In this document: positions 6,267 to 54,326 of the stretch, in pieces | How positions within the stretch are numbered: the stretch's first letter is position 1 | How the letters are laid out: each line of letters opens with the position of its first letter | Virus record (IMG/VR): IMGVR_UViG_3300023213_000432 | Coordinates: 64,001-128,000 of that record | Reading direction: 5' to 3' (one strand) | DNA from: a virus | Lineage: Duplodnaviria; Caudoviricetes | Length of the DNA: 64,000 nucleotides | Notes under the pieces: generated by a model | Database searches by the model: none | What the model was told of the DNA's origin: nothing | Seen by the model: only the letters and a program-made list of their open reading frames with translations | Made by a program: the position numbers and the translations under genes

Positions 6267-7979
6267 ATGACCGAATATAAACTCAAACATTTTAAACCGG
6301 GAGATCGTATCCGAGTTAAAATCGGAGGAGCTAAACGTTGGGCAACCGTTGTTCATAAAGGAACAAAAGGAGATGCCGCGACTACCTTGTATCTTGATAC
6401 GCCTTATCGCGGAGTCATCGGGGAAAGTTGGAATATAAATGAAGATAAATTCCGTCTGCTCCGTTATGAGAAGATGATTGAAAAATTAGGATTAAACACC
6501 ACTAGCAACAAATTTTGGGAAGCTTATCCTAATGAAACCATAGTGATTGATGTTGGGACTCGTGCTTCTAAAATCCCTAAAATCTCCGATCTTAAAGAAG
6601 GAGATTACATCAAGATTAATCATCATGGACACGTTTCTTGGGCTACGGTTGTTGAAGGAGCTGAAGATGCCGCGGATGTTTATTTAGATACACAAATGGG
6701 GGCGCCCCACAAATCATGGCTTGGTGATTCACAACATTTAAAATTGGCTCAAAAGTTTGGATTGAATAGCGACGCTCCTAATTTTAGAAGGATACGTGAT
6801 GATGACACTAAAGTTTTAGAGGTTGGTATTCCCAAGAAACCAGTTAGTCTTCCTGAAAAGGTTTATCAACTTGGCGAGCGAGTGAAGATTAAGGTTCTGG
6901 ATGACGGTAGGCGAATTACTGATGCCACCGTTATTGATGATGGACAAAATAGTACAAGAAAAGTACCTTTGTTTTACTTGGATAAATCATATGGGTGGTC
7001 TCCCAAAAAAGCAAAAGATGAATTAGCACAAGAAGCTTGTAAGAACTTTGGATTTAATGATAAAGAAAGTAAGGCTTGGTATGGATTTGAAGGTGACTTT
7101 CGATTTATTAGAACACTTGACGAAGAAATAATTAAACCAAAAGGAGAGAAAGAAATGCGTAGGAAAAAAATAAAATACAAGGTTGGTGAACGTATTAAAG
7201 TTCAGATTACCAATGATGATGACAAAAAACATCTAACTTGGGCTACCGTTATCTCATCTAAGGGTTTGGACGACGATCCTTATATGCCATTGTTGTATTT
7301 AGATAATGAGACCGATGATAGTTGGACATGGGATGAGGATTGGCAACGTAAAGCTGCCGTAAAGCAGAAAGCTGATCCCGACGAACCCAAATTTTGGTGG
7401 TTGTGCGCTATAGATACTGAAGTTGTGCAACGAGGAGAAGGAGACAATGTTATGGAAGAAGATAATAAGGATCACAAATTCACGGAAATGGTTAAAAAAG
7501 ACATGGTGGATGCTGGCTATCGTGTAGCATCCAATCAAATGGTAAAAGGCATCAAAGCCGGAGTTTTGAAACTTTTCAAGGATAAAGGAGCCGATGATGG
7601 CAAAATTGCAGTCCTTAAAGAAGTTCTCGATAGTGATGTAGGAAGCATGGCTATTTCACTTTTACTTGGTTATGGACTTGGATACGTGCCTAAGATCGGA
7701 GATGATCCGAGAGTAAAGAAGTTGTCCAAGGAATTCAGAGTTGAAGGCTTCACATTTGGAGGTAACTTGGCTGCGGATACTATCATGCAATATCTGGCAC
7801 CGGCAGTTATGGAAGCTGTTAATGCCCTTCCACCAGTTTCGGAAGTGGTGGAGACCGTTGCCGAAAAAACAGGTCTCAAAAAGAAGACCAAGAAACGTGT
7901 TGGTACTTCTGTTCGTGTTAAGGAAGAGGAACAAGAGCACGAAGAAGAGGAAACCAATGGCAAGCGAGCCCACGCTTAA
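6267..7979 (+). CDS. Modular protein A: 4 SH3/KOW-like repeats + conserved C-terminal DAGYRV domain
   Basis: Repeats K.G(D/E)R.(R/K)V...(W)ATV...LYLD; C-terminus DAGYRVASNQMVKG..LD..G..IS..LG..EFRVE. Confidence 0.8.
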   Translation: MTEYKLKHFKPGDRIRVKIGGAKRWATVVHKGTKGDAATTLYLDTPYRGVIGESWNINEDKFRLLRYEKMIEKLGLNTTSNKFWEAYPNETIVIDVGTRASKIPKISDLKEGDYIKINHHGHVSWATVVEGAEDAADVYLDTQMGAPHKSWLGDSQHLKLAQKFGLNSDAPNFRRIRDDDTKVLEVGIPKKPVSLPEKVYQLGERVKIKVLDDGRRITDATVIDDGQNSTRKVPLFYLDKSYGWSPKKAKDELAQEACKNFGFNDKESKAWYGFEGDFRFIRTLDEEIIKPKGEKEMRRKKIKYKVGERIKVQITNDDDKKHLTWATVISSKGLDDDPYMPLLYLDNETDDSWTWDEDWQRKAAVKQKADPDEPKFWWLCAIDTEVVQRGEGDNVMEEDNKDHKFTEMVKKDMVDAGYRVASNQMVKGIKAGVLKLFKDKGADDGKIAVLKEVLDSDVGSMAISLLLGYGLGYVPKIGDDPRVKKLSKEFRVEGFTFGGNLAADTIMQYLAPAVMEAVNALPPVSEVVETVAEKTGLKKKTKKRVGTSVRVKEEEQEHEEEETNGKRAHA

Positions 7980-8092
7980 AGAGGCCCTAGGTCTTGCTAG
8001 ACGTTGAGTCGATACCTCCATTGGCTCCGTCGCCCTAGACATACCTCGCAAATGGCAAGCTAGCGAGGCAATTCTTTAAAATTAAAAATCAA

Positions 8093-8455
8093 ATGAACAG
8101 TCAAGAAGTATTTGACCAAATTGTCAATCACCTTCGGCAACAAAGAGCTAAATCCATTGATATTTTAGGTCGGTGCGCCTATCGTGGATCGCAAGGTAAA
8201 AAATGTGCAGTTGGTGTTCTGATAAATGATGATGAATATTGTGATCAAATGGAGGGCAGCCCAGTGTGTGACCTTATTGATTCTGAGAGCAAGAGTCAAT
8301 ATGTGTCTATTGAATTGAGGGATCGTTTAAAACCTCATATGGAACTATTGAGAGCATTGCAGCTCACGCATGATCTGTCTGAGATTAAAATATGGGAACA
8401 ACAATTCAAAGAAATTGCCGAACATTTCAAATTGGAATATAAGGTGCTCAAATGA
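8093..8455 (+). CDS. Phage hypothetical protein, tandem paralog 1
   Basis: MNSQEVFD..HLRQQ..CAY..KKCAVG..EY..MEG; paralog of 8452-8904. Confidence 0.75.
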   Translation: MNSQEVFDQIVNHLRQQRAKSIDILGRCAYRGSQGKKCAVGVLINDDEYCDQMEGSPVCDLIDSESKSQYVSIELRDRLKPHMELLRALQLTHDLSEIKIWEQQFKEIAEHFKLEYKVLK

Positions 8456-8904
8456 GATCTCAAGAGATTTTTGATTGTATATTGAAACATGCTCGCCAAC
8501 AAGGTAAAAAATCTTTGTTTCCATCTGAGGAAGTGACTCAGTGTGCATATTTAAATAAAGATGGATTGAAGTGTTTTGCTGGCGTCCTCTTCGAAAAAGA
8601 AGAATATTCTAAAGCAATGGAAGGTTGTTCTATTCGCAATATTCTTCTTGGTCGAGTTCCTGAAATTGACAAGAAAATTGTTGAACAACTTCAGAAGAGA
8701 TTGTGGCAGCATGTGGATTTGATAGAACGCCTTCAAATAATTCATGATGATTATCATGTGGAACAGTGGGAGGAGAAATTTGTCCAAACAGCTAGAAAAT
8801 TTGGTTTGGAATATTCTCTTCCTCCTAAAAAGGAAGAATTAAAAATGGAAGAAATTTTGCAAGAGACGAAACCAGAAAACAAATCAGAAAACAAACAGGA
8901 GTAG
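8452..8904 (+). CDS. Phage hypothetical protein, tandem paralog 2
   Basis: MRSQEIFD..HARQQ..CAY..LKCFAG..EY..MEG; ATGA overlap with paralog 1. Confidence 0.75.
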   Translation: MRSQEIFDCILKHARQQGKKSLFPSEEVTQCAYLNKDGLKCFAGVLFEKEEYSKAMEGCSIRNILLGRVPEIDKKIVEQLQKRLWQHVDLIERLQIIHDDYHVEQWEEKFVQTARKFGLEYSLPPKKEELKMEEILQETKPENKSENKQE

Positions 8905-9012
8905 TGCCATGTGGTGGATTTTACGTAGAGTGATTTATATGTTGCTTAAAAAATTGGCGGACTGGCTAATCAAACTTTTGAAGCGTTGGTTGCGACGAAG
9001 ATATTGATAGCA

Positions 9013-9122
9013 GCCAATTACCCATGACTAAAAGTTATGGGCTTGTGTGAAGGATCCTAGTTAGATTCTTTTGATCAAGTTAAATTATTGCATTAGACAC
9101 AGATCAGAATAGGAGACGTTAA
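9013..9122 (+). mobile_element. Truncated isrB-element remnant (first ~110 nt of omegaRNA)
   Basis: GCCAATTACCCATGACTAAAAGTTATGGGCTTG...CAGAATAGGAGAC, then ATGA. Confidence 0.8.
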
Positions 9123-9386
9123 ATGACCCACGTTCGTATTTCTGCTGAACAAAATGAGCAAGAACTTACTATTCCTTGCACTAACTGCACTTCCGAATTT
9201 CGGGAAGAAAAGTTTGGTTGGCGTCCGGGATTAGTGTTTCATCCTTCATGGCATGAGTGGCTGGCTAAATTTCGTTTAGCGCGCGAAGAGAAAGTCGCTC
9301 CACCACCATTTCCCGAAGCACCATACTATATGGATTGTGATGTTTGTAAAGGTACTGGAGAAAAAGTAGTTTCGGTGGGTCAATAA
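9123..9386 (+). CDS. Zn-finger hypothetical protein (CxxC...CxxCxGxG)
   Basis: PCTNC; DCDVCKGTG; stop supplied by the next element. Confidence 0.65.
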   Translation: MTHVRISAEQNEQELTIPCTNCTSEFREEKFGWRPGLVFHPSWHEWLAKFRLAREEKVAPPPFPEAPYYMDCDVCKGTGEKVVSVGQ

Positions 9387-9835
9387 CCCACGATTTTAAT
9401 CGTGGGCTTGTGCGAAGGGAATCAGTCACTCTCTTTTGATCAAGACTAAAATATTGTACTAGACGAAGATCAGAATAGGAGACGCAAGTCAAATAGAAGA
9501 AGATCAAATAGGCAGATCAGGATCGTTATGACGAGACTGGAAAAGATACGCTACTGGATGTTTCGCTAGTCTGTAGCCGCATTTCGTAAGAGATGCCGAT
9601 ATTCTATCGATAAATTATAGGATATCCGCTGTGTTTTGCTTATGTCGAAGCGAGTTGCACAAGCCCTTTACAGGGAAGGTTTTCTGAGGATTTTTCCTTT
9701 CTCTCACGAGAGAATAAAGTCTTCGTTTTACTAAACAATTCGTCAAGAAAAGAGATATTGATGTCTTATACAAACAGAATAGGAGAGTTCAATTCCTCTC
9801 ACGACTAAAATCGTGGGTCTCCTTGAACCAATTTT
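9379..9835 (+). mobile_element. omegaRNA-only mini isrB element (internal deletion of the ORF)
   Basis: Both ends and the full omegaRNA present; only the last ~30 isrB codons kept; followed by ATGA. Confidence 0.9.
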
Positions 9836-10060
9836 ATGACACTCGATGAGATTAAGAAAGAACTTCAAGGCAGTCGGGATGAGACTGATAAGTTGGTCAA
9901 ATGTCTTCAGGACGCTATTCAGGCGGAAAATGAGGAAGATTTTATTCAAGCCTTGACTTGTGCTGATAGGATGGCTATTTCTTTATCAGGGACTATCTTT
10001 GAAGCATTATGCAAGATAGACCCAGAAGCAGCGATGGGTAATCTAGAAGACATAGATTAG
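9836..10060 (+). CDS. Hypothetical protein
   Basis: ORF starting at the ATGA flank of the mini element. Confidence 0.55.
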   Translation: MTLDEIKKELQGSRDETDKLVKCLQDAIQAENEEDFIQALTCADRMAISLSGTIFEALCKIDPEAAMGNLEDID

Positions 10061-10069
10061 AGGTCTAAC

Positions 10070-10474
10070 ATGTGGATCACTACTGGTATCATTATTATAT
10101 ACTTAATGGGCATTCCAGTGACATTTATATTGGAGCCTTATCTATATTGTCCAGATCCTGAAACGAAGGACAATCTGAAAGATGTCGTCCTTTTGTCTTT
10201 GTTTTGGCCCATTTTTTTGTTGATTGTATTACCCGTTAGCACACTCATCGTTCTTCGGGAAGCTACTCGTCAAAGAGTTCTTCGCAAGAAACAAGAGAAA
10301 AACCAAAAGACATCGCAAAAGAAAGATTCGGAATCATCGGTTCCTAAACGAGAGCCAATTAACTATCGTGTTGCCCCATGCCATATTTGCGGTCATGCAG
10401 TTCAATACCTTGATGAGATAGAAAAAGAATTAACTTCAGTTGAACACTATAATCCTCTGAAAAATCATTCATGA
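10070..10474 (+). CDS. Membrane protein with C-terminal CxxC
   Basis: Two hydrophobic segments; LFWPI motif; GAGGT SD. Confidence 0.6.
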   Translation: MWITTGIIIIYLMGIPVTFILEPYLYCPDPETKDNLKDVVLLSLFWPIFLLIVLPVSTLIVLREATRQRVLRKKQEKNQKTSQKKDSESSVPKREPINYRVAPCHICGHAVQYLDEIEKELTSVEHYNPLKNHS

Positions 10475-11718
10475 ACCCCATTGATAAAAACTACTTTGAG
10501 GAAAAGCTGGACGTAGCTAAAAAGCATTTGAAGAAAGTGCAACAGTTCCTCACCATTAACAAGCAAGTTATTAAGCTTGGGCAAATTGCATCTAATTCTA
10601 TTGTGGAAACTGTTAAAAACAAAACGCCGGTTTCTTTAGTTTCGGGTGCTTTGGAAGCTATTTCTGCCTTAACTATTGGGGATATGTGGTATGCGCGAGA
10701 CTATTTTCCTATTGGTCAGGGATGGTATGATCTTACGGTAGATGGAGAACGTAATCTTTCCGAGTTATTTGGAACTGTTATTCGAAAGTATCCCAGCAAA
10801 TCATTGTCAATTCTAGATGGAGATCGAACCCGAGTTCCAGAATTAATCGCTTTACCAATTGGCGTAATTGGGTGCATTTCCTCAGAAAGCGATATTTCGG
10901 TCTTGTATCAGCCCGAGAAGGTTGATAGAGACAAGCTCTTGTCCTTTTTAGTTAAAGAGAAAGTTAAAGAACTCAATAGCAATTTTTTCTCTTTGTTTTC
11001 CAAAAGCACTGGATATGGATCTCGGCACTTTTCTTTAGTTCCTGAGAAACTTAATCCATTACCTTCTCGAAGAGCCCAAGAGTATGTGGAATACTTCAAG
11101 CGATACTTCGACAAAGGCATTCATCGTTCAGTTCTATTTTATGGGCCGCCGGGAACCGGAAAAAGCACTTTAGTTCAATATCTTCTCAGTGAGTTTGGGT
11201 TCCGAACTTTCAAGTTTAGATGTGAAGGATTTATGGTGCCATTCGGTATGGTTCGTTTCATCATTGAGAATTTTGATTGCGAAGCAGTGATGATGGATGA
11301 TATGGATCATATGATTGGAAATGGAAGCAACTCTGATCTTTTGGAAACTCTAGAAGTAGCTAATAGGCATTCTAAGTTTGTTATTGGATGCGCAAACGTT
11401 TTGTCAGGTTTTCATAGCGCTCTTATTAGACCAAAACGTTTTGATGAAATAATTAAAATTGATACTTTGGATGAGGAAACTATTATCGGAGTATTGGGCG
11501 ATCTTAGCCCTGACTACAAAGATAAAGTTAGACATTGGCCTATTGCTTACGTTAGTGAGTTGAAGACCAAGAGCTTAGTAGTTTCTGCTAAAGAATTGGA
11601 AGCAGCATATGTTGAACTGAATGAGAGAGTTAAAAATCAATTGGTAATGGTGGGCAAAGAAAACGAAGATGGGGATGAAAAAAAGAGTAGTCCATCACTT
11701 GCGGAATCCGAATCATGA
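10471..11718 (+). CDS. AAA+ ATPase
   Basis: Walker A FYGPPGTGKS; Walker B VMMDDMD; ALIRPKRFD arginine finger. Confidence 0.9.
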   Translation: MNPIDKNYFEEKLDVAKKHLKKVQQFLTINKQVIKLGQIASNSIVETVKNKTPVSLVSGALEAISALTIGDMWYARDYFPIGQGWYDLTVDGERNLSELFGTVIRKYPSKSLSILDGDRTRVPELIALPIGVIGCISSESDISVLYQPEKVDRDKLLSFLVKEKVKELNSNFFSLFSKSTGYGSRHFSLVPEKLNPLPSRRAQEYVEYFKRYFDKGIHRSVLFYGPPGTGKSTLVQYLLSEFGFRTFKFRCEGFMVPFGMVRFIIENFDCEAVMMDDMDHMIGNGSNSDLLETLEVANRHSKFVIGCANVLSGFHSALIRPKRFDEIIKIDTLDEETIIGVLGDLSPDYKDKVRHWPIAYVSELKTKSLVVSAKELEAAYVELNERVKNQLVMVGKENEDGDEKKSSPSLAESES

Positions 11719-11945
11719 GTCCTTATCGAACTGATATGGTAGTTCGGGAGCAAAAACAAGAATTTGGTTTGATTATTGCTCCCAAAGCTTATGTCCATGA
11801 GTGCCGACTTCCAAGATTATTGTTTCATCTTTGGATGTGGATGAGAGGTCAAAAAGTTGAGAATAAAAGCTTATACCGCTGCACCTGCGGAAAAGTGTTT
11901 CAGTATATAGCAGTAATTGGTCCATTAGGCTCTTGGTGTCAATAA
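11715..11945 (+). CDS. Small hypothetical protein; last codons replaced by the mini element
   Basis: HECRLP..YRCTCGK; removing the element gives ...GSWYELDD*. Confidence 0.55.
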   Translation: MSPYRTDMVVREQKQEFGLIIAPKAYVHECRLPRLLFHLWMWMRGQKVENKSLYRCTCGKVFQYIAVIGPLGSWCQ

Positions 11946-12386
11946 CCCATGACTAAAAGTCATGGGCTTGTGCGAAGGGAATCAGTCACTCTCTTTTGAT
12001 CAAGTTAAAATATTGTACTAGACACAGATCAGAATAGGAGAAGAAGATCAAATAGGCAGATCAGGATCGTTATGACGAGACTGGAAAAGATACGCTACTG
12101 GATGTTTCGCTAGTCTGTAGCCGCATTTCCGTAAGGAGATGACAATACCTCATCGATAATTTTGTGAGGTATTCGCTATGTTTTGCTTATGTCGAAGCGA
12201 GTTGCACAAGCCCTTTACAGGGAAGGTTTTCTGAGGATTTTTCCTTTCTCTTACGAGAAAATAAAGTCCTTGTTTTTATAAAACAATTCGTCAAGAAGAG
12301 AGATATTGATGTCTTATATGTACACAGGATAGGAGAGTTCAATTCCTCCCACGACTAAAATCGTGGGTCTCTTTGAACCATTTTTC
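11938..12386 (+). mobile_element. omegaRNA-only mini isrB element
   Basis: Same ends, omegaRNA and deletion junction as 9379-9835; followed by ATGA. Confidence 0.9.
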
Positions 12387-12425
12387 ATGAGTTGGACGAT
12401 TGATATTTAATAGGAGTATATAAAA

Positions 12426-14538: not shown

Positions 14539-14563
14539 AAAGTAATTATCAAGGGAAAAGATT

Positions 14564-15278: not shown

Positions 15279-15294
15279 AGAATAGGAACACGCT

Positions 15295-15573: not shown

Positions 15574-15576
15574 TTT

Positions 15577-17463
15577 ATGAAGTGTGATCATTGCGGAGCC
15601 CAAAAATCCGGTGCCCTTCCCACAGGAACTAGAATTGCTTGGTGCATTCAGTGCATCAAAGAAGAACATCTTTATTTAAGATCTTTGAATCTGGAAAGTT
15701 TTAGTTCATTCGACATTGATAATAGAATCAAAACTAATTCATGGCAAGAATTTGGGCTGCCTCAAAACATTAATAAACTTGGCGCTATCCCCAAAAAGGC
15801 ATCTATGAATCAACAATATTCTATCCCAACTCAATTTACTATTGGCTCTAAAGTTAAAGTTGGAGATGTTCCTTTAGGAACGGAAGTGGAATATAGTGGA
15901 ATTAAGGGCACTATTGTTGCAAAAGGCGGAAGCTCCTCCACTATTGCTTGGAAAATTGGAGACGCCCGCACATATAACGGAGCTTATGATATCACCAAAG
16001 CCGCTTCTGGAGCCGTTTCTGGCTCTGGAGAAAAGCTTCAAACGCTTTCCCAATATTCCTTGGGATACAATGTAGCAAATAGCGATCTAATTACTGTTAT
16101 CGCCAAACCAATAAGGATAGGTGATTTTCCTTTAGGAACTAGAGTTAAATGGAGTGGTTTGATTGGGACTATTATTGGGAATTATGCAGGCAGTTCTGTG
16201 AATGGTTCCGCTGCTATTGGCTGGAAATTAGGAGAAGAGCCCTATGTAGCTGCTCAGCAGAATTTTTTAGTTTCTAAATCTTATAACTATATTCCCAATA
16301 AAGAAAACTATGTAAATCATTATTGGGTTAACAATAATACTCAAATAGAAGTTTTGGAAAGTGAGGGCTGTATGAAAATATCGGAGTTGCAAATTGGTCA
16401 AGAGATAGAATGGAATGGAGTTAAAGGAATTATTGCAGGAAATCACACTAGTTCGGGAGAAAGATTATTTGTTAGTAAAGATCCTTTTCTTGGCACCTCG
16501 AAGCATACCAAAAGTAACGACACCAAGATAACTTATACTGATAAAGTAATTGATTACTCCTACTCCATTTGGCTTACGAGTCTTACCGAAGTGATAATGA
16601 TTGGAGAGAGGATTGGAAAGTTTGGATTGAAGTTAGGTGATAAAGTTGTTGTTTTCAGACGAAAGAACGATAACAGCCTAATGGATACCGGAGCTGAAGC
16701 GGATACCTCTCGTAGTTTAATAGGAACAGTAGCAGGGTTTAATGCCTTGGGAGAAGCCAATGTGTGGTTTGATCCCGCCCAATATGGAAATATTCAAGGC
16801 AATTCTACAGCTACTGCCAAAGCTGCGGTAGATAAGTCTTATATGGATAAAGTGGATCAAAATTATAACAACTTTTGGTTGATAAGAACGGATAAAGCAT
16901 TTATTAAAATCGAAATAAAGGAGAATAAAATGAGCAACGAAAAAAATGGTCAGAGTGAAACGAAGCCGACTTTTGTCGAAATGATGCGTACCGACATGAG
17001 CAGTGCAGCATATCGTGTAGCGGCAAATCAAATGAGCAAAGGCATTAAGGGCGCTATTTTGATGGCTCTCGAAAAGAAAGGCACTGATGGTGGCAAAGTC
17101 GCGGCTATTGCGGAAATGCTTGATACTGAAGTAGGTCAAGCAGCAATCAGCATGATGATTGGATTGGCACTAACGTATCTCCCGCATGTTAGCGCGGATC
17201 CGCGGGCTCAACGATTGGCAGGTGAATTCCGAGTGGAATCGATGACTATGGTCGGGAACACATTGCTAGATACAGTGGTGGAACATTTCCTTCCAGTGAT
17301 TACGGGAGCCCTCAATGCTCTTCCTCAAGAGACACCGGCAGTTCGTGTTTCCACTCCGCCTGTGGAGGAAACGAAATCAGTAGATAAACTGGCTTTGGAA
17401 GAAGCGGCACGGGAGGAAGCGGAGAAAGCCGCGGAGCCACAAGCCAAACAACAGCAAGCATAA
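15577..17463 (+). CDS. Modular protein B: N-terminal Zn finger, 4 SH3/KOW-like repeats, conserved C-terminal domain
   Basis: CDHCG..CIQC; repeats (V/I)GD.PLGT.V..SG..GTI; C-terminus AAYRVAANQMSKG..LDTEVG..EFRVE. Confidence 0.8.
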   Translation: MKCDHCGAQKSGALPTGTRIAWCIQCIKEEHLYLRSLNLESFSSFDIDNRIKTNSWQEFGLPQNINKLGAIPKKASMNQQYSIPTQFTIGSKVKVGDVPLGTEVEYSGIKGTIVAKGGSSSTIAWKIGDARTYNGAYDITKAASGAVSGSGEKLQTLSQYSLGYNVANSDLITVIAKPIRIGDFPLGTRVKWSGLIGTIIGNYAGSSVNGSAAIGWKLGEEPYVAAQQNFLVSKSYNYIPNKENYVNHYWVNNNTQIEVLESEGCMKISELQIGQEIEWNGVKGIIAGNHTSSGERLFVSKDPFLGTSKHTKSNDTKITYTDKVIDYSYSIWLTSLTEVIMIGERIGKFGLKLGDKVVVFRRKNDNSLMDTGAEADTSRSLIGTVAGFNALGEANVWFDPAQYGNIQGNSTATAKAAVDKSYMDKVDQNYNNFWLIRTDKAFIKIEIKENKMSNEKNGQSETKPTFVEMMRTDMSSAAYRVAANQMSKGIKGAILMALEKKGTDGGKVAAIAEMLDTEVGQAAISMMIGLALTYLPHVSADPRAQRLAGEFRVESMTMVGNTLLDTVVEHFLPVITGALNALPQETPAVRVSTPPVEETKSVDKLALEEAAREEAEKAAEPQAKQQQA

Positions 17464-20132: not shown

Positions 20133-22949
20133 TTGAAAATGCATTTTTGTTTTAATTGTGGCACTGAAATAATCGATAAAAAAGAATTGTTACGACAACC
20201 AAATCGTGTTGGTTTTTGCAAAGACTGTGCCCATGATGCTTGTAAAAGGACAGGAATTGCATTATTATCTAGTGTTATCGATACTTTATTGAAATATGAT
20301 GGCTTCTTTCAGGCCTCTAAAGAAGAAGCATTAATAGCCACCCCCAATGGACCCGCTCCTCCAAAGATGGTTAATCCTAATCCAGTTGAGATTGACCCTA
20401 CCAAAACCAAAGTTAAAGTGGAGGTAGGTCAAAAATGGAAAATTTTAGGCGATACCTATGAGATCGTTGCCCTTGATTTGATTAATGGGCGGTGTGATGC
20501 TATTCGAGACCATGATAAGCAGGAATATAAAGGTTTTGGACTAATTGACAAAGATGGCTATCCGGGTTGGACTGTAGTTGGATGGCGAGTAATTCCCGCT
20601 CCCAAAACAAAAATTGAAGTAGGACAAATATGGATGTCGCTTAACTCCAGACTTACGTATGAAATTACTAAAGTTATGCCAGGGCAAGCTAAAGCCGAAG
20701 CCCTACGTTCGGATGGTAGAAATGATCGGTTCATTGGAATTAAGTTAGATGGGTATCCTGAAGAAGGTTACTGGAATGGTTTTGTGTTGATTTCTAAAAA
20801 ACCTATTGGATCCAAAAATATGAATAACATTAAAGTAGAGGTTGGACAGAAATGGACTTATTTAAATCAGACATATGAAATTACCGACATTAATTTGATC
20901 GATGGATATTGTCATGCAATTGACGTTGATACCGGTAAAAAAGTATTGAATTGGGCGACAATTGACAAAAAGACTGGAAAGGCGAATTTTCCGTCAGTTG
21001 ATTTATGGGAAGTGGTTGCAGCTCCTAAATTCAAAGTAGAAGTGGGACAAGTTTGGGCACACATCGGTACTCCAAAAATTACTTACAAAATTACTACAGT
21101 TGATTCTAAAGGGCGCCATTGTAGTAGTGAGCACGGTGGGTTTGGTAGTTTGGATGTTGATGGATTTCCTTTATGGAACTTGGAGAATTGGAGGATGATC
21201 TCAAAGGATCCAAAACTAAGCAAAATCAAAGTAGCAGTGGGACAGATTTGGGAAACCCAATCTAGAAATGGAAATGAGGTTGTCATTACCTCAATCGATA
21301 AGAAAGGCAACGTTGGAGTCATTACACACAATGGTGGTGATTCTAAAGAATGCACGTTTGGGACTATTGATAATGAAGGATATGGCAACTGGTACGGTTG
21401 GCAATTAAAAACAGATGCTCCTCATGCTAGTCAAACCAAGATCAAGGTGGGACAAGTTTGGAAGCAACATTCTTACAACAAAGAATTTACCATCACCAGT
21501 ATCAAAGACGGTATTGTTATGGGAAAATTTGATGATGAAACTAAAAGTCTCTTTTGGAATCATCTTAATTCGGATGGATGTTTAACAGCTGATGTTCCTA
21601 ATTGGAGATTAGTTAAGGAAGTTATTGTTCCTAAACCTGCTGTAGGGCAAAAGTGGAAGTGGATTTCAGATATTGAACCATCTATTAAGGGGCACGTTTT
21701 CACTTTGAAAGAAATTGTCGACTGTGATTGTTATTTTGACAATTTGAGTCGCCGGATTGCTAGAATTAATAAAGATGGAACCATTTGGAAAGACAATTTA
21801 CTATATTGGGAATTGGTGGAATTGGAAGATCATAATACTTCTTCAGCTGTAAACGATTTATTACTTCTGGAAAAGTTAGAAGCCATTTATAATGGAGGAG
21901 ATTCTAGCCTTTTAGTTAAATATCCAGGTCTTTGGAACGAGATGTGCAGTCTTGGATATTTCAAGCACGGAGAATATCCTAACAATCGCAAGATTGAAGA
22001 ACGACTTACTGTTCATGGTTATGCTAGGATGATGGAGTTACGCAAGAAAATTAGAGGTGCTTCTGAAATCAAAGTAGGACAGATTTGGAAGTCACCTTCG
22101 GGCGTTGAATATCGTATTAGTAACATACCCACTACTGACAAGGATGGGACTTATTTAATAAGTATCGATTTGCTTTGTGACGGCTTTTGGAAAGGTGGGT
22201 ATTTGTGTAGCGCCCGTAATGGAGTGTTAAACGATAACGGGGAAAGCTGGGTATTGGTACAGGATGTTGTAGAACCCGCCCTCAAAATTTCTCCTGTTCA
22301 GCCGGGACAAGTATGGAAAGATAAAATTAATAATGAATGGCGAATTAAAAAAATTATAAATGATAAACGTGCCATAGCAGAAATCAAAGGATGTGATGAT
22401 CAGTGGAATGGTGACTACGATGTGGGTTTGGACGAAGGATATTTAATAGGTGATTGGATATTAATTACAAACTCTCAAGACATCCCCAAGAAGTTGAAAA
22501 AAAATCCCAAACGTCAATTCACTCTCCGAGAAACCATCAAGGAAGATATTGCCGATGCTGGATACCGTGTAGCCGCTAACCAACTTACCAAAGGAGCACA
22601 TGCAGCTATTTCAAAGTTGTTGGAAAGTCGAGGATATTCTTCCGAGAAAATTAAGATATTTATTGAGCTATTAGATACTGATTTTGGGAAATCATTGGTT
22701 GGAATGATTTTAGGAATGAGTTTAACATATACTCCCCAACTTAAAACCAATACTCATGCTCAGAAATTAGCCCGAGAGTTTCGGGTTGGTTCCATGAGCA
22801 CCATGGGAAATGCCATGGCGAATTATATTCTTCCGGCAATTATGGATTCCTTATCTGAGGATAATGTTAGAATTGCGCCCGAAGTGAGAGTGGAAGAGCA
22901 AGAAGAATTAGTATTGGAAGAAGAAGCGAATAAAGAGGCATATGTATGA
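20133..22949 (+). CDS. Modular protein C: N-terminal Zn finger, 9 VGQ.W repeats of ~65 aa, conserved C-terminal domain
   Basis: CFNCG..CKDC; nine (V/P)GQ.W repeats each ending in an aromatic residue (mostly W); C-terminus DAGYRVAANQLTKG..LLDTDFG..EFRVG. Confidence 0.82.
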   Translation: MKMHFCFNCGTEIIDKKELLRQPNRVGFCKDCAHDACKRTGIALLSSVIDTLLKYDGFFQASKEEALIATPNGPAPPKMVNPNPVEIDPTKTKVKVEVGQKWKILGDTYEIVALDLINGRCDAIRDHDKQEYKGFGLIDKDGYPGWTVVGWRVIPAPKTKIEVGQIWMSLNSRLTYEITKVMPGQAKAEALRSDGRNDRFIGIKLDGYPEEGYWNGFVLISKKPIGSKNMNNIKVEVGQKWTYLNQTYEITDINLIDGYCHAIDVDTGKKVLNWATIDKKTGKANFPSVDLWEVVAAPKFKVEVGQVWAHIGTPKITYKITTVDSKGRHCSSEHGGFGSLDVDGFPLWNLENWRMISKDPKLSKIKVAVGQIWETQSRNGNEVVITSIDKKGNVGVITHNGGDSKECTFGTIDNEGYGNWYGWQLKTDAPHASQTKIKVGQVWKQHSYNKEFTITSIKDGIVMGKFDDETKSLFWNHLNSDGCLTADVPNWRLVKEVIVPKPAVGQKWKWISDIEPSIKGHVFTLKEIVDCDCYFDNLSRRIARINKDGTIWKDNLLYWELVELEDHNTSSAVNDLLLLEKLEAIYNGGDSSLLVKYPGLWNEMCSLGYFKHGEYPNNRKIEERLTVHGYARMMELRKKIRGASEIKVGQIWKSPSGVEYRISNIPTTDKDGTYLISIDLLCDGFWKGGYLCSARNGVLNDNGESWVLVQDVVEPALKISPVQPGQVWKDKINNEWRIKKIINDKRAIAEIKGCDDQWNGDYDVGLDEGYLIGDWILITNSQDIPKKLKKNPKRQFTLRETIKEDIADAGYRVAANQLTKGAHAAISKLLESRGYSSEKIKIFIELLDTDFGKSLVGMILGMSLTYTPQLKTNTHAQKLAREFRVGSMSTMGNAMANYILPAIMDSLSEDNVRIAPEVRVEEQEELVLEEEANKEAYV

Positions 22950-46850: not shown

Positions 46851-48206
46851 CCCATGACTAAACTCATGGGCTTGTGCGAAGGGAATCAGTCACTCTCTTT
46901 TGATCAAGTTAAAATATTGTACTAGACACAGATCAGAATAGGAGACGCAAGTCAAATAAAAGAAGATCAAATAGGCAGATCAGGATCGCTAATGACGAGA
47001 CTGGAAAAGATACGCTACTGGATGTTTCGCTAGTCTGTAGCCGCATTTCGTAAGAAATGCCAATATCTCATCGATAATTTTATGAGGTATTCGCTGTGTT
47101 TTGCTTATGTCGAAGCGAGTTGAACAAGGCACGTAAGTGCATTTTTTGAGGAAATAATAGAAATTGGTTCCCGTTATCGATAACCACAAACAACCATTAA
47201 TGCCTTGCTCTGAGAAAAGAGCCAGGAGACTTATGGAGAAAGGTAGCGCTATTTCATATTGGCAGAAAGGTATCTTTTGCATTCGTCTAACTAAAGAACC
47301 TTCTAACCGACAAACACAACCCATTGCTCTTGGGATTGATCCAGGAAGTAAAAGAGAAGGATATACTGTTGCTACTAGAAAAGCAGTAGTATTGAATATT
47401 ACCTCCAATACTCCGGGCTGGATTAAAAAACATATTGATACTCGAAGACAATTACGGAAAAGCCGAAGATATAGAAAAACTCCTTATCGTTCTTGTCGAG
47501 AAAATAGAGCTACTTTGAGGAAAGATCGTGTTCCTCCTTCCACCAAAGCAAGGTGGAATGCTAAATTGCGAATGGTTATTTTTCTTCTGAAAATTATTCC
47601 TATTACCATTATTAATGTAGAAGATGTTGCCGCTTACACTAAGAAAGGACAAGCAAAGTGGAACGTTTCTTTCTCTCCTTTGGAGGTTGGAAAAGTTTGG
47701 TTTTATCAAGAGATAAAAAACCTTGGAGTTCAGCTTCTCAAAACTGAAGGACATCAAACTCAAGAAAAACGAGATCAGCGCGGGTTTCAAAAATCATCTT
47801 CCAAGCTTAGCTATTCTTGGAATGCTCATAACGTAGATAGTCATGTTCTTGCGGAGATGGCGCTAGGAACAGAAATCTTTCCATATTATGGATTGTGGAA
47901 GATAGAATTTTTAGAATTTCATCGAAGACAACTTCACGTTCAGAATCCAATTAAGAATAGCATCAGAAAACAATATGGGACTACTATTTCTATGAAAATG
48001 CCCAGAGGATCTGTCATAAGACATAAAGGTAAGTTCTATTATCTTGGAGGAAGTAGCAAAGGTAGAGTTACTATTCATAGCGTCATTACAGGAAAGAGAA
48101 TTAAGCAATCTGTCAAGAAGGAGAATATTGTTGTTTTATATGCACAGAATAGGAGAGTTCAATTCCTCCCACGATTAAAATCGTGGGTCTCCTTGAACCA
48201 ATTTTC
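46843..48206 (+). mobile_element. isrB element, copy 2
   Basis: Same ends and omegaRNA as copy 1; followed by ATGA. Confidence 0.92.
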
Positions 48207-48210
48207 ATGA
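47164..48210 (+). CDS. isrB: IsrB, copy 2
   Basis: PLMP; GIDPGSK; VEDV; HNVDSH; no HNH. Confidence 0.9.
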   Translation: MVPVIDNHKQPLMPCSEKRARRLMEKGSAISYWQKGIFCIRLTKEPSNRQTQPIALGIDPGSKREGYTVATRKAVVLNITSNTPGWIKKHIDTRRQLRKSRRYRKTPYRSCRENRATLRKDRVPPSTKARWNAKLRMVIFLLKIIPITIINVEDVAAYTKKGQAKWNVSFSPLEVGKVWFYQEIKNLGVQLLKTEGHQTQEKRDQRGFQKSSSKLSYSWNAHNVDSHVLAEMALGTEIFPYYGLWKIEFLEFHRRQLHVQNPIKNSIRKQYGTTISMKMPRGSVIRHKGKFYYLGGSSKGRVTIHSVITGKRIKQSVKKENIVVLYAQNRRVQFLPRLKSWVSLNQFS

Positions 48211-50410: not shown

Positions 50411-51761
50411 CCCATGACTAAAATTATGGGCTTGTGCGAAGGATCCTAGTCAGATTCTTTTGATCAAGACTAAAATATTGTACTAGACAAAGAGAGAAGA
50501 AAGGTTATTTAACCAAACGATATTTCAAATAGGCAGATCAGGATCGCTATGACGAGACTGGAAAAGATATGCTACTGGATGTTTCGCTAGTCTGTAGCCG
50601 CATTTCGTAAGAAATGCCGATATTCTATCGATAAATTATAGAATATCCGCTGTGTTTTGCTTATGTCGAAGCGAGTTGAACAAGGCACGTAAGTGCAATT
50701 TTTTGAGGAAAAGAAACATTGGTTCCCGTCATCGATAACTACAAACAACCATTAATGCCTTGCTCTGAGAAAAGAGCTAGGAAACTTATGGAAAAAGGAA
50801 AGGCTATTTCATATTGGCAGAAAGGTATCTTTTGCATTCGTCTAACCAAAGAACCTTCTAACCGACAAACACAACCCATTGCTCTTGGCATTGATCCTGG
50901 AAGTAAAAGAGAAGGATATACTGTTGCTACTAAGAAAGCAGTAGTTATCAATATCACAACTAATACTCCAGGCTGGATTAAAGATCATGTAGAGACTCGT
51001 AGAAACCTTCGAAGATCTAGAAGATACCGAAAGACTCCTTATCGCTCCTGTCGAGAAAATAGAGCAACTCTTCGAAAAAATCGAGTTCCTCCTTCCACCA
51101 AAGCCAGGTGGAATGCTAAACTGAGAATTATTAAATTCATTCTGAAAATTATTCCTATTACAATCGTTAATGTAGAAGATATTGCCGCTTACACTAAGAA
51201 GGGACAAGCAAAGTGGAATACTTCCTTCTCTCCTTTAGAGGTTGGAAAAACTTGGTTCTATCGTGAGTTAGAAAACTTCGGAGTTCAGCTTCTCAAAACC
51301 AAAGGAACCAAAACTCAAGAAAAACGAGATCAGCGAGATTTTCATAAGCTATCTTCCAAGCTTGATTATTCTTGGAGTGCTCATAACGTGGATAGCCATG
51401 TCCTTGTGGAGATAGCATTGGAATCAGAAATCTCTCCATATTATGGACTATGGAAAATAGAGTTTTTAGAATTTCATCGTAGACAACTTCATGTCCAGAA
51501 TCCAATCAGAGGCAATATCAGAAAACGATATGGAACTACTATTTCTATGAAAATGCCCAGAGGTTCTGTCGTAAAACATAAAGGTAAGTTATATTATCTT
51601 GGTGGAAATAAAAAAGGGAAAGTTTCGCTCCATAGTATCATTACAGGAAAAAGAATTAAACAATCTGTCAAGAAGAGAGATATTGGCGTTTTGTATGCAC
51701 AGAATAGGAGAGTTCAGCTCCTTCCACGATTAAAATCGTGGGTCTCCTTGAGCCTATTTTA
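50403..51761 (+). mobile_element. isrB element, copy 3
   Basis: Same ends; omegaRNA has a variant segment at ~50490-50525; followed by ATGA. Confidence 0.92.
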
Positions 51762-51762
51762 A
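50719..51762 (+). CDS. isrB: IsrB, copy 3
   Basis: PLMP; GIDPGSK; VEDI; HNVDSH; no HNH. Confidence 0.9.
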   Translation: MVPVIDNYKQPLMPCSEKRARKLMEKGKAISYWQKGIFCIRLTKEPSNRQTQPIALGIDPGSKREGYTVATKKAVVINITTNTPGWIKDHVETRRNLRRSRRYRKTPYRSCRENRATLRKNRVPPSTKARWNAKLRIIKFILKIIPITIVNVEDIAAYTKKGQAKWNTSFSPLEVGKTWFYRELENFGVQLLKTKGTKTQEKRDQRDFHKLSSKLDYSWSAHNVDSHVLVEIALESEISPYYGLWKIEFLEFHRRQLHVQNPIRGNIRKRYGTTISMKMPRGSVVKHKGKLYYLGGNKKGKVSLHSIITGKRIKQSVKKRDIGVLYAQNRRVQLLPRLKSWVSLSLF

Positions 51763-54326
51763 TGAAAATGAAAGTAGATGCTTTTATGCCTTCCATCGAT
51801 GCCGCCAAAACTCAAACTTTACTTAAAGATAATTCCGAGTCCTCCATAAAACCTGACCTTCAAGATCGAAAACAATATAAAATCGGAGATCGTGTCAAAC
51901 TTCGGATCAAAGAAAAGCAAGAAGTTTGGGGCACCGTTATCGAGCATAATTCTGCTCATAGTTTGTGTCTTTTTTTGGATGAGGCAATAGACATTGAACA
52001 GAAGAAAAGCTTCAAAACTATAAATCATGAGCGTCAGGAAACTCTTAAGAAATTGGGCATCTCGAATCCAGAGCGCCCTAACTGTTTTTTGTGGGGAGAT
52101 TTTTCCCCTAACTACATTATTGGAACTGACAAAGTTATTGTTTTGGATCGCCTTCTTGACGAAGAAACCATTAATCCGGCAGGTAAATCGATGGACGTTT
52201 TACCAGATTCCATCTTTTTTGATTGTCATAGTAACAGGTTCAGTGGATGCAGGCATGACTCGCAACACGAGCCATCCACTCGAAAAGTATATGCGGCTCT
52301 GAAAATAGATAAAGGAAATCCAGATTTAGTCTATGTTTGCGATCAGCATTTTCAAAATCGAGTTAGCTATAATTGGGAAAATCGTTCTTTAGGTTTTGAA
52401 GGTTTGGTACCATTAGATGTTGGTCCCGCTCCGTCCTATAAATTTGGAGATCGGCTTCAAATTAAGATTAATAACGAGATTGTTTGGGCCACCGTAGTAG
52501 ATGAACGAGGTTCCGGCGCCCATGAACCTCGTCTATCTTATCCGTTATTGCATTTAGATAAACCCAATCCCGCCTCTCATGATTTTATTCCGGAAGATCG
52601 TGTTAAACCTATTTCAGATATGGGTATAAATGTCAATGAGAAAAAGTTTTGGTGGCTTCTCCCTGATAACAAAGTTTTGTATCGTCTTCCTAAAGAACGT
52701 CCATGCACTCCATCTAATCAGCCCACAAAAGAAGGTAAGGGCGATATTGATGGTGCCCAAGTCAAACCACCCGAAGTAAAACAGTTTAAAGAAGGAAGCC
52801 TCGTTAAATATATTGCTGAGAGCGCACAAGTTGGAAGTAATCCAGCCCTGGTTATAGGACAATTATATAAGATTAGGAAAATAGGAAAGAGTATCGATGG
52901 CAGCGATCAAATTTTCTTGAAGGGATTTGATGAAGAAGATATTTGGTGGCGGAAAGAAAGATTTGAATTAATAACTGTTAAGAAAGATGTTCCTGTTGCT
53001 TTAGAGACGCCCACTAAACAAGAAGACAAATGTCAAATTGGAGATCATGTCTCATTGCTCATTGATGGAGTGTATAATACTGGTGGCACGGTAGTGGGTT
53101 TTCAGGATCAAGTTCCATTAATTTGGTTAGATCTTCCTAAACCAGGAAAGTATGGTGGGACAGTTGATTACTATTCCAATAAAGATGTAATTTGTGCTAA
53201 TATCAAAAAGTTAGGCTATGATACAAGTTTGCATCGTTGTTGGATTGCCCATCATTGGCATACCAGGATTCTCAACATTAAACACCTTTATTGGCTGGAT
53301 GCAAACGGCATGCCCTTGAAGTTTGATGATGCTAACTCAACTTTGAAGAATGCGGTAGCACCTCAGCCGCAAGCGAATGAAGTAGTTGATGTTGATAAAG
53401 CTAAATCATTTTCTATTTCCGGCGATGTTTATGGTCCGTATCCTGTCCCAACTACTAATTGGTGGCCGCTTGGAAATCAGTCCAACATCGAACAAAAGCC
53501 CCTTTTCAGCCCGCAGGATATTGAACGTGCCATTAAAACTTTGGAACAAGCATTTGCTATGGGTTTGGCAAAATCAGATCAAAAAGATGCGTTGAATGTT
53601 TTGGATCAAGTGGCTAAAAGATTGGAGCAAAAGGAAGATATTGTAAATACAATAACCAAAACTTATACTTTTTCTCAAGACAATACTTCTAATTGGATGC
53701 CGTTTGTTATAAATGCCGGTGCCAATTCTAAACCCCTTAACTTCAAGTTTGATGGTAAATCATGGAATATTGTTTCGGATGCCCCCATTAATGTTAGTGG
53801 TGGCAAATTAGATCCAGAAGAAAATTTCAAGGTATTTGTTGAAGAGGAAGAACAACCTAACAGCGACGACGAAGCTAAAAAGCGACCCTTTAGCGCTATG
53901 GTTAAAGAAGATGTCATTGATGCTGGATACCGTGTAGTTGCCAATCAACTTACCAAAGGCATTAAAAATGTTTTTCTCCTTGTTCTCAAAGACAAAGGAG
54001 CAGATGATAAGAAAATTACTCTCGTTCGAGAACTATTGGATAGTGAGATCGGCAATGCTTTTGTTTCTATTATCTTGGGATATTGTCTTACTTATATGCC
54101 CAAAGTTAAGGAAGATAAGCGGGCTCAAAAGTTGGCGGGCGAATTCCGCGTAGAAGGGTTATCAACTGCTGGTAATGCTTTGATGAATGTGGTATGGCAA
54201 TATGTTAAGGATTTGCCAGCATCGGAAAAAATAAGAGTGGAAACGAAAGAAGTTCGAGTTTCAGAAGAGGAGATACAAGAAATTGACGAAGTCGGCGAAG
54301 CAAGCGGCAATTGTGCTAATCATTAA
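51762..54326 (+). CDS. Modular protein D: SH3/KOW-like repeats + conserved C-terminal domain
   Basis: YKIGDRV..WGTV..LFLD repeats; C-terminus DAGYRVVANQLTKG..LLDSEIG..EFRVE. Confidence 0.8.
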   Translation: MKMKVDAFMPSIDAAKTQTLLKDNSESSIKPDLQDRKQYKIGDRVKLRIKEKQEVWGTVIEHNSAHSLCLFLDEAIDIEQKKSFKTINHERQETLKKLGISNPERPNCFLWGDFSPNYIIGTDKVIVLDRLLDEETINPAGKSMDVLPDSIFFDCHSNRFSGCRHDSQHEPSTRKVYAALKIDKGNPDLVYVCDQHFQNRVSYNWENRSLGFEGLVPLDVGPAPSYKFGDRLQIKINNEIVWATVVDERGSGAHEPRLSYPLLHLDKPNPASHDFIPEDRVKPISDMGINVNEKKFWWLLPDNKVLYRLPKERPCTPSNQPTKEGKGDIDGAQVKPPEVKQFKEGSLVKYIAESAQVGSNPALVIGQLYKIRKIGKSIDGSDQIFLKGFDEEDIWWRKERFELITVKKDVPVALETPTKQEDKCQIGDHVSLLIDGVYNTGGTVVGFQDQVPLIWLDLPKPGKYGGTVDYYSNKDVICANIKKLGYDTSLHRCWIAHHWHTRILNIKHLYWLDANGMPLKFDDANSTLKNAVAPQPQANEVVDVDKAKSFSISGDVYGPYPVPTTNWWPLGNQSNIEQKPLFSPQDIERAIKTLEQAFAMGLAKSDQKDALNVLDQVAKRLEQKEDIVNTITKTYTFSQDNTSNWMPFVINAGANSKPLNFKFDGKSWNIVSDAPINVSGGKLDPEENFKVFVEEEEQPNSDDEAKKRPFSAMVKEDVIDAGYRVVANQLTKGIKNVFLLVLKDKGADDKKITLVRELLDSEIGNAFVSIILGYCLTYMPKVKEDKRAQKLAGEFRVEGLSTAGNALMNVVWQYVKDLPASEKIRVETKEVRVSEEEIQEIDEVGEASGNCANH

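What the first reader, a model, noticed from the sequence alone, without database searches (positions are those of the whole stretch)
6267..54326. Family of four large modular proteins: variable SH3-like repeat arrays on one conserved C-terminal domain
Seen: 6267-7979, 15577-17463, 20133-22949 and 51762-54326 have different N-terminal repeat types. All end in a ~130-aa domain: F...(V/M/I)(K/R).D...A(G/A)YRV(A/V).NQ..KG....L...G....KI.....LD...G...IS..LG..L.Y.P....D.R...L..EFRV......GN, then an acidic tail. Two also share an N-terminal CxxCG...CxxC finger. I do not recognise this domain. Inference: a polymorphic effector or adaptor system in which a constant amphipathic helical module acts as a sorting or assembly tag (capsid packaging, ejection, membrane anchoring or oligomerisation) and carries interchangeable binding modules, possibly against host defence proteins.
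Basis: partly seen in the sequence, partly recalled or inferred. Interest (0 to 1): 0.8.

Follow-up and report, generated by a model that had tools for sequence, protein, structure and literature searches.

The report
Undescribed C-terminal domain on jumbo-phage repeat proteins
An uncultured giant phage carries seven related proteins (four in this window) in which strings of small SH3-like barrel modules all end in the same, so far undescribed, helical domain and tail; the domain is widespread in uncultured large phages, but its function is still only inferred.

Summary
Four window genes end in one conserved domain of about 135 aa plus a tail of about 40 aa (39-48% identity; E 1e-66 to 1e-86). 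The record is an IMG/VR jumbo-phage fragment and holds seven copies. The three upstream copies were already noted by this scan on other DNA of the same genome (e1-5401746).

A profile search finds 1,245 representative clusters. The domain is at the extreme C-terminus in all 154 proteins examined (144-3,283 aa). Nothing matches in Pfam, PHROGs, NCBIfam, PADLOC, PDB sequences, 50,697 GenBank phages, or (by a narrow pattern scan) 185,579 prokaryote genomes.

AlphaFold gives a confident five-helix domain with no significant fold match. The commonest repeat type folds as an SH3-fold barrel. No enzymatic domain is attached anywhere.

The tail is new detail: Pro-rich linker, basic cluster, RV, acidic run, and a position-specific K-x-A-x-A carboxy-terminus.

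The paralogues are old. They fall into five supported clades, each with orthologues elsewhere that share the repeat type, so modules are not freely interchangeable. Repeat number changes fast.

Function is inferred: a shared docking or assembly element for multivalent, non-enzymatic binders. The site of action (cytoplasmic hub, virion, Clp machinery) is unresolved.

The parts
6267..7979 (+). Gene 1 (P0001, 570 aa; alternative GTG start at 6219): four type-A repeats, then the C-terminal domain and tail
6276..7466 (+). Four type-A repeats of about 100 aa each (6276-6584, 6576-6851, 6849-7145, 7161-7466); SH3-fold barrel with an inserted helix
   Evidence: HMM hits E 7e-16 to 2e-22; AF2 model of the fourth unit, pLDDT 89.6, pTM 0.80; best structural neighbours are all SH3-fold barrels at modest scores
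7455..7973 (+). C-terminal helical domain plus tail of gene 1
   Evidence: E 1.7e-86; AF2 model m5cdad1829c0f, five helices, core pLDDT above 90
15577..17463 (+). Gene 2 (P0002, 628 aa): N-terminal zinc ribbon, three type-C repeats, one A-like unit, then the C-terminal domain and tail
15583..15654 (+). CxxC-16-CxxC zinc ribbon (C3, C6, C23, C26)
   Evidence: read directly from the translation; 20 of 154 family members have such a finger in the first 80 aa
15844..16944 (+). Three type-C repeats (15844-16608) and one A-like unit (16618-16944)
   Evidence: type C E 7e-22 to 2e-20; A-like E 8e-5
16939..17463 (+). C-terminal helical domain plus tail of gene 2
   Evidence: E 8.1e-83; the 'stop inside' is the gene's own terminal TAA
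20133..22949 (+). Gene 3 (P0003, 938 aa from TTG 20133; ATG at 20139 is the likelier start): zinc ribbon, nine type-B repeats, then the C-terminal domain and tail
   Evidence: the ESM Atlas record of this protein begins at residue 3
20148..20228 (+). CxxC-19-CxxC zinc ribbon (C6, C9, C29, C32)
   Evidence: read directly from the translation
20409..22490 (+). Nine type-B repeats (K-V-G-Q-x-W, about 68 aa each), with a non-repeat insert at about 21834-22058
   Evidence: E 7e-9 to 1e-16; fold not modelled
22485..22943 (+). C-terminal helical domain plus tail of gene 3 (shortest tail; no basic cluster)
   Evidence: (E 4.5e-66)
51762..54326 (+). Gene 4 (P0004, 854 aa; alternative GTG start at 51738). 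Its ATG overlaps the stop of the preceding RRXRR (IsrB-type) ORF by one base
51861..53291 (+). Three type-A repeats (51861-52175, 52425-52712, 53016-53291), separated by other unassigned segments
   Evidence: E 1e-14 to 7e-18
53853..54323 (+). C-terminal helical domain plus tail of gene 4
   Evidence: E 7.4e-70

Best explanation
These are paralogous 'beads-on-a-string' proteins of an uncultured jumbo phage. Each has the same layout, in this order:
- an optional N-terminal zinc ribbon;
- an array of small barrel modules (type A is SH3-fold);
- a charged flexible linker;
- a constant five-helix domain of about 135 aa;
- a flexible tail of about 40 aa: Pro-rich stretch, K/R cluster, (V)RV, acidic run, and a K-x-A-x-A carboxy-terminus.

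Shown: this architecture, its conservation, and the absence of catalytic domains.

Inferred: the constant part is a docking or co-assembly element. The helical domain and the terminal peptide tie every paralogue, and the naturally occurring cargo-less copies, to one common partner or to each other. The arrays then supply multivalent, non-enzymatic binding.

My pick for the site of action is the cytoplasm of the infected cell. There the proteins would act as tethered or clustered binders (scaffolds or sponges) in host take-over or counter-defence. Neither the partner nor the ligands are identified.
For: - Domain position: at the extreme C-terminus in 154 of 154 proteins examined, with N-terminal parts of 0 to 3,106 aa.
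- Copy number: 7 copies in this 198-kb record; 2-4 per locus elsewhere, often in tandem.
- Conserved polar residues: K16, D18, R25, Q30, D86, R88, E95 and R97 on the two long helices are invariant or nearly so across 74 sequences. This fits a conserved interface.
- Tail end: conserved by position counted from the carboxy-terminus (-5 K, -3 A/M, -1 A/V/G). K.A occurs in the last 10 residues in 49 of 131 proteins, against 13 +/- 3.2 in shuffles. This fits a peptide read from a free end.
- Cargo-less copies: genuine stand-alone domain genes sit beside full-length ones in complete context (L015, L016, L019, L030). This fits co-assembly or competition for one site.
- No enzymes: no catalytic Pfam domain in 70 full-length relatives or in three giants. 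The only hits are small barrels: SH3_12, MazE, ProQ_C, MS_channel beta, DUF4176.
- Type-A fold: an SH3-fold barrel whose nearest shapes are CAP-Gly, Tudor, chromo, KOW and WYL.
- Cytoplasmic pick: zinc ribbons at the N-terminus and no signal peptide visible in the sequences. The genes lie among non-structural genes: VapE-like, AAA ATPase, metallophosphatase, RNA ligase, rIIA-like, FEN. In other contigs they lie among runs of small same-strand ORFs with RadC, NADAR and HNH, with no structural Pfam hit among the neighbours.
Against: - No partner was found. No neighbouring gene is conserved across 25 loci, and the nearby AAA ATPase is absent from a complete related genome.
- Very long repeat proteins (up to 3,283 aa) are more typical of structural, fibre or ejected proteins than of early cytoplasmic factors.
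- Gene position is weak evidence. T4 internal-protein and decoration genes also lie outside the main structural clusters (established knowledge).
- There are no expression or localisation data.
- Only type A was folded. The ligands of the modules are unknown.
Confidence: 0.35

Rival explanations
1. Virion targeting. The helical domain plus tail behaves like the C-terminal part of a scaffolding or core protein. It co-assembles into the prohead, or onto the capsid, and so carries the arrays into or onto the particle as internal, ejected or decoration proteins. The terminal K-x-A would then be a site or docking peptide for the maturation protease.
For: - Giant phages have multi-member paralogue families of head proteins and long targeting propeptides (SPN3US and phiKZ; PMC5694885).
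- The proteins are non-enzymatic bead-like repeats of up to 3,283 aa.
- Cargo-less copies fit a core building block.
- The tail's basic cluster could contact DNA or coat protein.
- The K-x-A end resembles the candidate K-x-A protease motif that another first-stage note reports in head proteins of this same genome (e1-5401820; not checked here).
Against: - The genes lie more than 130 kb from the head genes that the scan notes place in this genome, among non-structural genes.
- The candidate promoter motifs that scan notes report for other regions of this genome (e1-5401824, head-gene region; e1-5401810) are not enriched in the window and none precedes these genes.
- Known capsid-targeting sequences are N-terminal, and Pfam PF12699 does not match.
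- There is no homologue in 50,697 GenBank phage records, so no proteome to consult.
- A cleavage two residues from the carboxy-terminus would be odd.
Confidence: 0.3
2. Clp-type protease link. The tail is a degron or docking peptide for a Clp unfoldase, of the host or of the phage. The proteins would then either be timed for degradation or act as adaptors that deliver whatever the arrays bind.
For: - The conserved basic-then-small carboxy-terminus (K-x-A-x-A, often K-K-x-A) and an internal (V)RV motif resemble ClpX C-terminal recognition signals and the SspB ClpX-binding peptide. This comparison is from memory and was not tested.
- A complete related genome with 2-3 family members encodes two tandem ClpP genes and a 748-aa AAA_2 Clp ATPase.
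Against: - No ClpP and no AAA_2 hit above the cut-off in the 198 kb of this record that could be read.
- The host is unknown.
- The reading leaves the 135-aa helical domain without a role.
- Short motifs in K/E/A-rich tails are easy to over-read.
Confidence: 0.1
3. Peripheral membrane anchor. The Gly/Ala-rich hydrophobic hairpin dips into the inner membrane and the basic cluster binds anionic lipid. The arrays are thereby held at the cell envelope, for example for superinfection exclusion or lysis timing.
For: - The most hydrophobic, Gly-rich segment (G.A.IS..LG.GLTY.P) sits in the central hairpin.
- The weak sequence and fold neighbours are mostly membrane proteins: GltPh, KcsA and K2P channels, MotA, site-2 protease.
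- A K/R cluster lies in the tail.
Against: - The maximum 19-residue Kyte-Doolittle mean is 1.14, below the usual 1.6 threshold, so there is no classical transmembrane helix.
- All fold matches are below background for helical models (best Z 7.5).
- The model is a compact bundle with high confidence as a soluble monomer.
Confidence: 0.1

Closest known systems
Head paralogue families and capsid-targeting propeptides of giant phages (SPN3US and phiKZ families A/B, PF12699; T4 CTS of the internal proteins and Alt)
   Same: Several paralogues per genome; copy number varies between related phages; a shared segment is thought to direct different proteins to one assembly (PMC5694885).
   Different: Those targeting segments are N-terminal and are cleaved off; here the constant part is C-terminal. 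There is no sequence match to PF12699. Virion presence is unknown, and the genes are not in a structural cluster.
Decoration proteins with displayed domain arrays and one capsid-binding domain (T4 Hoc type; from established knowledge)
   Same: An N-terminal string of small beta domains with a C-terminal attachment domain.
   Different: Hoc uses Ig-like domains and a non-helical anchor. Here the modules are SH3-fold (type A) and the anchor is a five-helix domain. N-terminal zinc ribbons are present. No capsid association is shown.
Polyvalent and polymorphic effector proteins of phages and conjugative elements (Iyer et al. 2017, as cited in PMC7824862)
   Same: Large modular phage proteins with variable domain content, found in jumbo phages.
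   Different: Polyvalent proteins string together enzymatic anti-host domains. No enzymatic domain is found here, and the modules co-diverge with the constant domain instead of being swapped.
SH3-fold small barrels (CAP-Gly, Tudor/chromo, KOW, WYL/Sm-like)
   Same: The type-A repeat model gives a small barrel whose 50 best solved neighbours are mostly such domains. ESM Atlas neighbours include WYL_2 and WYL.
   Different: Scores are modest (best Z 6.1; no Foldseek E<=0.001). The unit is about 100 aa, with an inserted helix and two extra strands. No family-specific motif is shared; the CAP-Gly GKNDG motif, for example, is not seen in the sequence.

Membership tests
Any curated family (Pfam-A, PHROGs v4, NCBIfam 20, PADLOC 2.0) for the C-terminal domain | Profile match at or near the curated threshold | tested here: not met
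   No hit on the domain in any of the seven proteins at E up to 0.1-1. Profile against PDB sequences: best E 0.019, to a membrane transporter segment.
Known fold for the C-terminal domain (including ESCRT-III/PspA, colicin-type or K+ channel pore domains) | Significant structural match covering the domain | tested here: inconclusive
   Foldseek PDB: no E<=0.001. AFDB clusters: best E 0.14. VIA-align over 48,161 chains: best Z 7.5, below the background for helical models. ESM Atlas: TM <= 0.42. BFVD: only a sequence homologue from an uncultured phage.
Tail-anchored or integral membrane protein | A hydrophobic segment of about 19 or more residues with mean Kyte-Doolittle hydropathy above about 1.6 | tested here: not met
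   Maximum alignment-averaged 19-residue mean is 1.14.
SH3-fold small beta-barrel (type-A repeat) | Compact barrel of about five strands whose nearest structural neighbours are SH3-fold domains | tested here: met
   AF2 pLDDT 89.6, pTM 0.80, with strands 11-17, 23-32, 44-47, 78-80, 86-91 and helix 60-68. Top VIA rows are CAP-Gly, Tudor, chromo, KOW, Hfq-like, WYL proteins and ZapC-C, at Z 4-6.1. ESM Atlas rows include WYL_2 and PemK. This is fold class only; scores are too low to assign a family.
CAP-Gly domain | Conserved GKNDG-type glycine motif that binds C-terminal EEY/F | tested here: not met
   The type-A consensus is L-K-x-G-D-R-V ... A-T-V ... L-D ... S-W ... L-G-L ... W. No GKNDG is seen in the translations.
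Giant-phage head paralogue family A (PF12699) / T4-type capsid targeting sequence | PF12699 match, or an N-terminal propeptide removed by the prohead protease; presence in virions | tested here: not met
   No PF12699 hit, and the constant part is C-terminal. Processing and virion presence cannot be tested with these tools.
Polymorphic toxin or polyvalent effector | Variable catalytic or toxin domains on a constant trafficking part | tested here: not met
   No catalytic Pfam domain in the 4 window proteins, 70 relatives or 3 giants.
ClpX-type C-terminal degron or adaptor peptide | Clp-dependent recognition of the carboxy-terminal peptide | not testable with these tools
   Only the motif is shown. 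The host is unknown, and the resemblance is recalled from memory.

The most novel reading that the evidence does not exclude
The constant domain is a self-assembling building block of an undescribed intracellular or intracapsid phage structure. Bare copies would form the lattice or core, and array-bearing copies would decorate it with tens of SH3-fold binding sites. The conserved carboxy-terminal K-x-A-x-A peptide would serve as the handle by which a protease or unfoldase (prohead protease or Clp) remodels or dismantles the structure. This would be a new kind of phage-built scaffold or condensate, specific to a large clade of uncultured jumbo phages.
Probability: 0.12. Interest if true: 0.85.

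Novelty: new variant of a known kind. Interest (0 to 1): 0.55.

Why it matters
The domain defines a large protein family that no library describes: 1,245 clusters at 50% identity, 712 of them at E<=1e-10. So far it is seen only in uncultured phage and metagenome contigs, several of 330-470 kb, and it occurs in up to seven copies per genome.

It gives a name and a boundary to a sizeable part of the unannotated coding space of huge phages. It also provides a clean handle for experiments, namely one constant domain plus a five-residue terminal motif, to find out where these proteins go and what they bind.

If the domain proves to be a targeting or assembly tag, it would also be a natural fusion tag for directing cargo in such phages.

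Tried and rejected
- Homodimer prediction of the domain (residues 8-145, two copies): 'no answer', score 0.19 against a mark of 0.42, controls not run. This is evidence neither way.
- Sequencing-run search for expression: no RNA holder listed.
- tblastn of the domain against 50,697 GenBank phage records: no match.
- Pattern-based scan of 185,579 prokaryote genomes: 116 pattern matches, none a relative. The patterns were narrow, so this is weak evidence of absence.
- The search for related loci with the deeper alignments failed for lack of a conserved 7-10 column stretch.
- Conserved-neighbour analysis over 25 loci: nothing recurs except among near-identical contigs.
- The Cdc48-like AAA ATPase at 10471-11718 was considered as a partner and rejected. 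It is absent from the complete related record G001.
- Candidate promoter motifs taken from other scan notes (ATAAT-N4-YAT; TGATATAT): not enriched in the window, and none lies before these genes.
- Isoelectric points of the arrays (median 6.3) and of the domain (median 5.3) say nothing about nucleic-acid binding.
- ESM Atlas look-ups by features gave only scores of 0.80 or less, i.e. chance level.
- T4 Gp23 and Terminase_6C searches, meant to place the phage, found nothing.
- Recurrent amber interruption of family genes: only one case among 43 genes.
- Literature searches found no description of this family.


Full report
**What the window is.** The window is bases 64,001-128,000 of an IMG/VR virus record of 198,652 bp, which CheckV rates 46% complete. 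The same protein is also on record on a contig of 327,423 bp. GC is about 0.38 and nearly all genes are on the + strand.

Neighbouring genes are non-structural:
- three RRXRR (IsrB-type) ORFs
- a VapE-like protein
- a Cdc48-like AAA ATPase
- a metallophosphatase
- an RNA ligase
- an rIIA-like protein
- a 5'-3' exonuclease

This is a fragment of an uncultured jumbo phage.

**The observation.** The four ORFs translate without interruption.

A profile search of the whole record finds seven copies, at E 1.7e-86 to 8.4e-37. Four are in the window. Three are in tandem upstream: P0005, P0006 and P0007. Another first-stage note had already seen those three (e1-5401746).

Both zinc fingers are there.

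The 'stand-alone' upstream copy P0006 is not really alone. It lies in the same frame as the 421-aa array ORF before it, separated by a single TAG and no other stop. Reading that TAG as Q gives a 633-aa protein colinear with P0007, and the TAG aligns with a Q in P0007.

**Reach of the domain.** A profile of the seven domains was scored against 1.84 billion representative proteins. It finds 1,245 clusters at E<=1e-3, 712 at E<=1e-10 and 219 at E<=1e-30.
- In all 154 proteins examined the domain ends the protein, with a median of 8 residues after the profile's end.
- Protein lengths run from 144 to 3,283 aa.
- Named members are 'uncultured Caudovirales phage' proteins, for example CAB4196649.1, which sits on contigs of up to 447 kb.
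- A complete 472,749-bp UViG has 2-3 copies and a 35-kb fragment has three in tandem.
- Seventeen further metagenome loci were fetched; several hold 2-4 copies within a few kb.
- No match was found in 50,697 GenBank phage records, nor in a narrow pattern scan of 185,579 prokaryote genomes.

**What the domain looks like.** No library matches it: Pfam, PHROGs, NCBIfam, PADLOC and PDB sequences all fail.

AlphaFold2 with a 74-sequence alignment gives pLDDT 84 overall and above 90 through the core. There are five helices, at 4-45, 50-61, 63-78, 87-126 and 130-141, and the last 35 or so residues are disordered.

Fold searches of PDB, BFVD, AFDB clusters and the ESM Atlas, plus a Foldseek-independent pass over 48,161 chains, give nothing above background. 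The best Z is 7.5, where helical models typically reach 14 by chance.

There is no transmembrane-grade hydrophobic stretch, and amphipathicity is ordinary.

Conserved positions include polar residues on both long helices (K16, D18, R25, Q30, D86, R88, E95, R97) and glycines in the central hairpin.

**The tail.** After a conserved L-P, the family shows these elements in order:
- a Pro-rich stretch
- often a K/R cluster (K-K-x-K-K-R-V)
- one or two (V)RV
- an acidic run
- a carboxy-terminus conserved by position: -5 K (53 of 131), -3 A (52) or M (19), -1 A (60), V (17) or G (11)

K.A falls in the last ten residues in 49 of 131 proteins, against 13 +/- 3.2 in shuffles of the same tails. A motif anchored to the free end suggests a reader of carboxy-termini.

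Two leads fit this, and neither was tested. One is the K-x-A candidate protease site that another note reports in head proteins of this genome (e1-5401820). The other is Clp-type degrons, recalled from memory. The complete related genome G001 encodes two ClpP genes and a Clp ATPase.

**The arrays.** Iterated profiles over the 157 proteins in hand define three repeat types:
- Type A: about 100 aa, 162 units in 53 proteins.
- Type B: K-V-G-Q-x-W, about 68 aa, 56 units in 13 proteins.
- Type C: 30 units in 8 proteins.
- About half of the proteins use other, unassigned modules.

A type-A unit directly precedes the domain in six of the seven local genes.

A type-A unit folds with pLDDT 89.6 and pTM 0.80 as a small barrel with an inserted helix. 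Its nearest solved shapes are mostly SH3-fold domains: CAP-Gly, Tudor, chromo, KOW, Hfq-like, WYL proteins and ZapC-C. Scores are modest, at Z 6.1 or less, and Foldseek finds nothing significant.

No catalytic Pfam domain occurs in 70 relatives or in three giants. The few hits are small barrels.

**Evolution.** On a quick maximum-likelihood tree of 153 domains the seven local paralogues fall into five supported clades (SH-aLRT 95-99). Each clade has orthologues from other contigs with the same repeat type.

Repeat type is clustered on the tree: 43 changes against 69 in shuffles, with 0 of 200 shuffles as low. The careful tree search did not finish, so this is the quick tree.

Within clades, length varies greatly. 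For example, 259 and 3,226 aa occur in one clade with 99% support.

The family is therefore old and stable in kind, but fluid in repeat number. It is not a cassette-swapping system.

Genuine cargo-less domain genes (146-175 aa) lie next to full-length ones.

**Reading.**
Shown: the architecture, its conservation, the lack of enzymes, and the tail motif.

Inferred: the constant part is a docking or co-assembly element shared by all paralogues, and the arrays are multivalent binders.

I place the site of action in the infected cell's cytoplasm, at 0.35. The grounds are the gene context and the zinc ribbons.

The rivals are:
- virion targeting, at 0.30 (giant-phage head paralogue families, PMC5694885)
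- a Clp link, at 0.10
- a peripheral membrane anchor, at 0.10

The single complex prediction gave no verdict.

**Verdict.** The function remains open, but it can now be tested through one domain and a five-residue terminal motif.

Noticed in passing
L006:1417-1419 (G000 33646-33648, upstream of the window): A single in-frame TAG splits one family gene into a 421-aa array ORF and a 192-aa domain ORF that has its own Shine-Dalgarno and ATG. Read-through gives a 633-aa protein colinear with its neighbour P0007, and the TAG aligns with a Q there. It is either a recent nonsense mutation or an amber-gated gene. Another note reports amber suppressor tRNAs in this genome. This is the only such case among 43 family genes examined.
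   Followed up: partly
window 1388-2503, 47164-48210, 50719-51762: Three ORFs with strong RRXRR (IsrB-type) Pfam matches (E about 1e-40). The third ends one base into the ATG of family gene 4, so a mobile element abuts that gene.
   Followed up: partly
window 17788-18591 and 24860-25912: A calcineurin-like metallophosphatase and an RNA ligase (with PHA02142 OB domain) flank family genes 2 and 3. This looks like an RNA-repair set in the same gene run.
   Followed up: no
window 10471-11718: A 415-aa classic-clade AAA ATPase whose ATPase domain is closest to the D2 domain of Cdc48/p97 (E about 1e-8), with an unassigned 200-aa N-terminal part. It is not found in the complete related record G001.
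   Followed up: partly
G001:C1:172530-173690 and 354259-354777 (related complete 472,749-bp UViG): Two tandem ClpP genes (E 2e-48 and 3e-40) and a 748-aa AAA_2 Clp-type ATPase in a megaphage that also carries the family.
   Followed up: no
window 43933-46104: An rIIA-like protein whose N-terminal half matches rIIA of many T4-like and jumbo phages (25-37% identity). The ORF that follows (46101-46850) has no Pfam match.
   Followed up: no
window 39011-39994: A protein with DUF7277 and DUF7275 domains (E 6e-49 for DUF7275). It is followed by a 457-aa ORF with weak HTH and HNH matches.
   Followed up: no
L015 (Ga0307379_10001074), 7412-15806: Four family genes within 8.4 kb: 352 aa, 157 aa (domain alone), 841 aa and 146 aa (domain alone). 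This is the densest cluster seen, and it shows that cargo-less copies are natural.
   Followed up: partly
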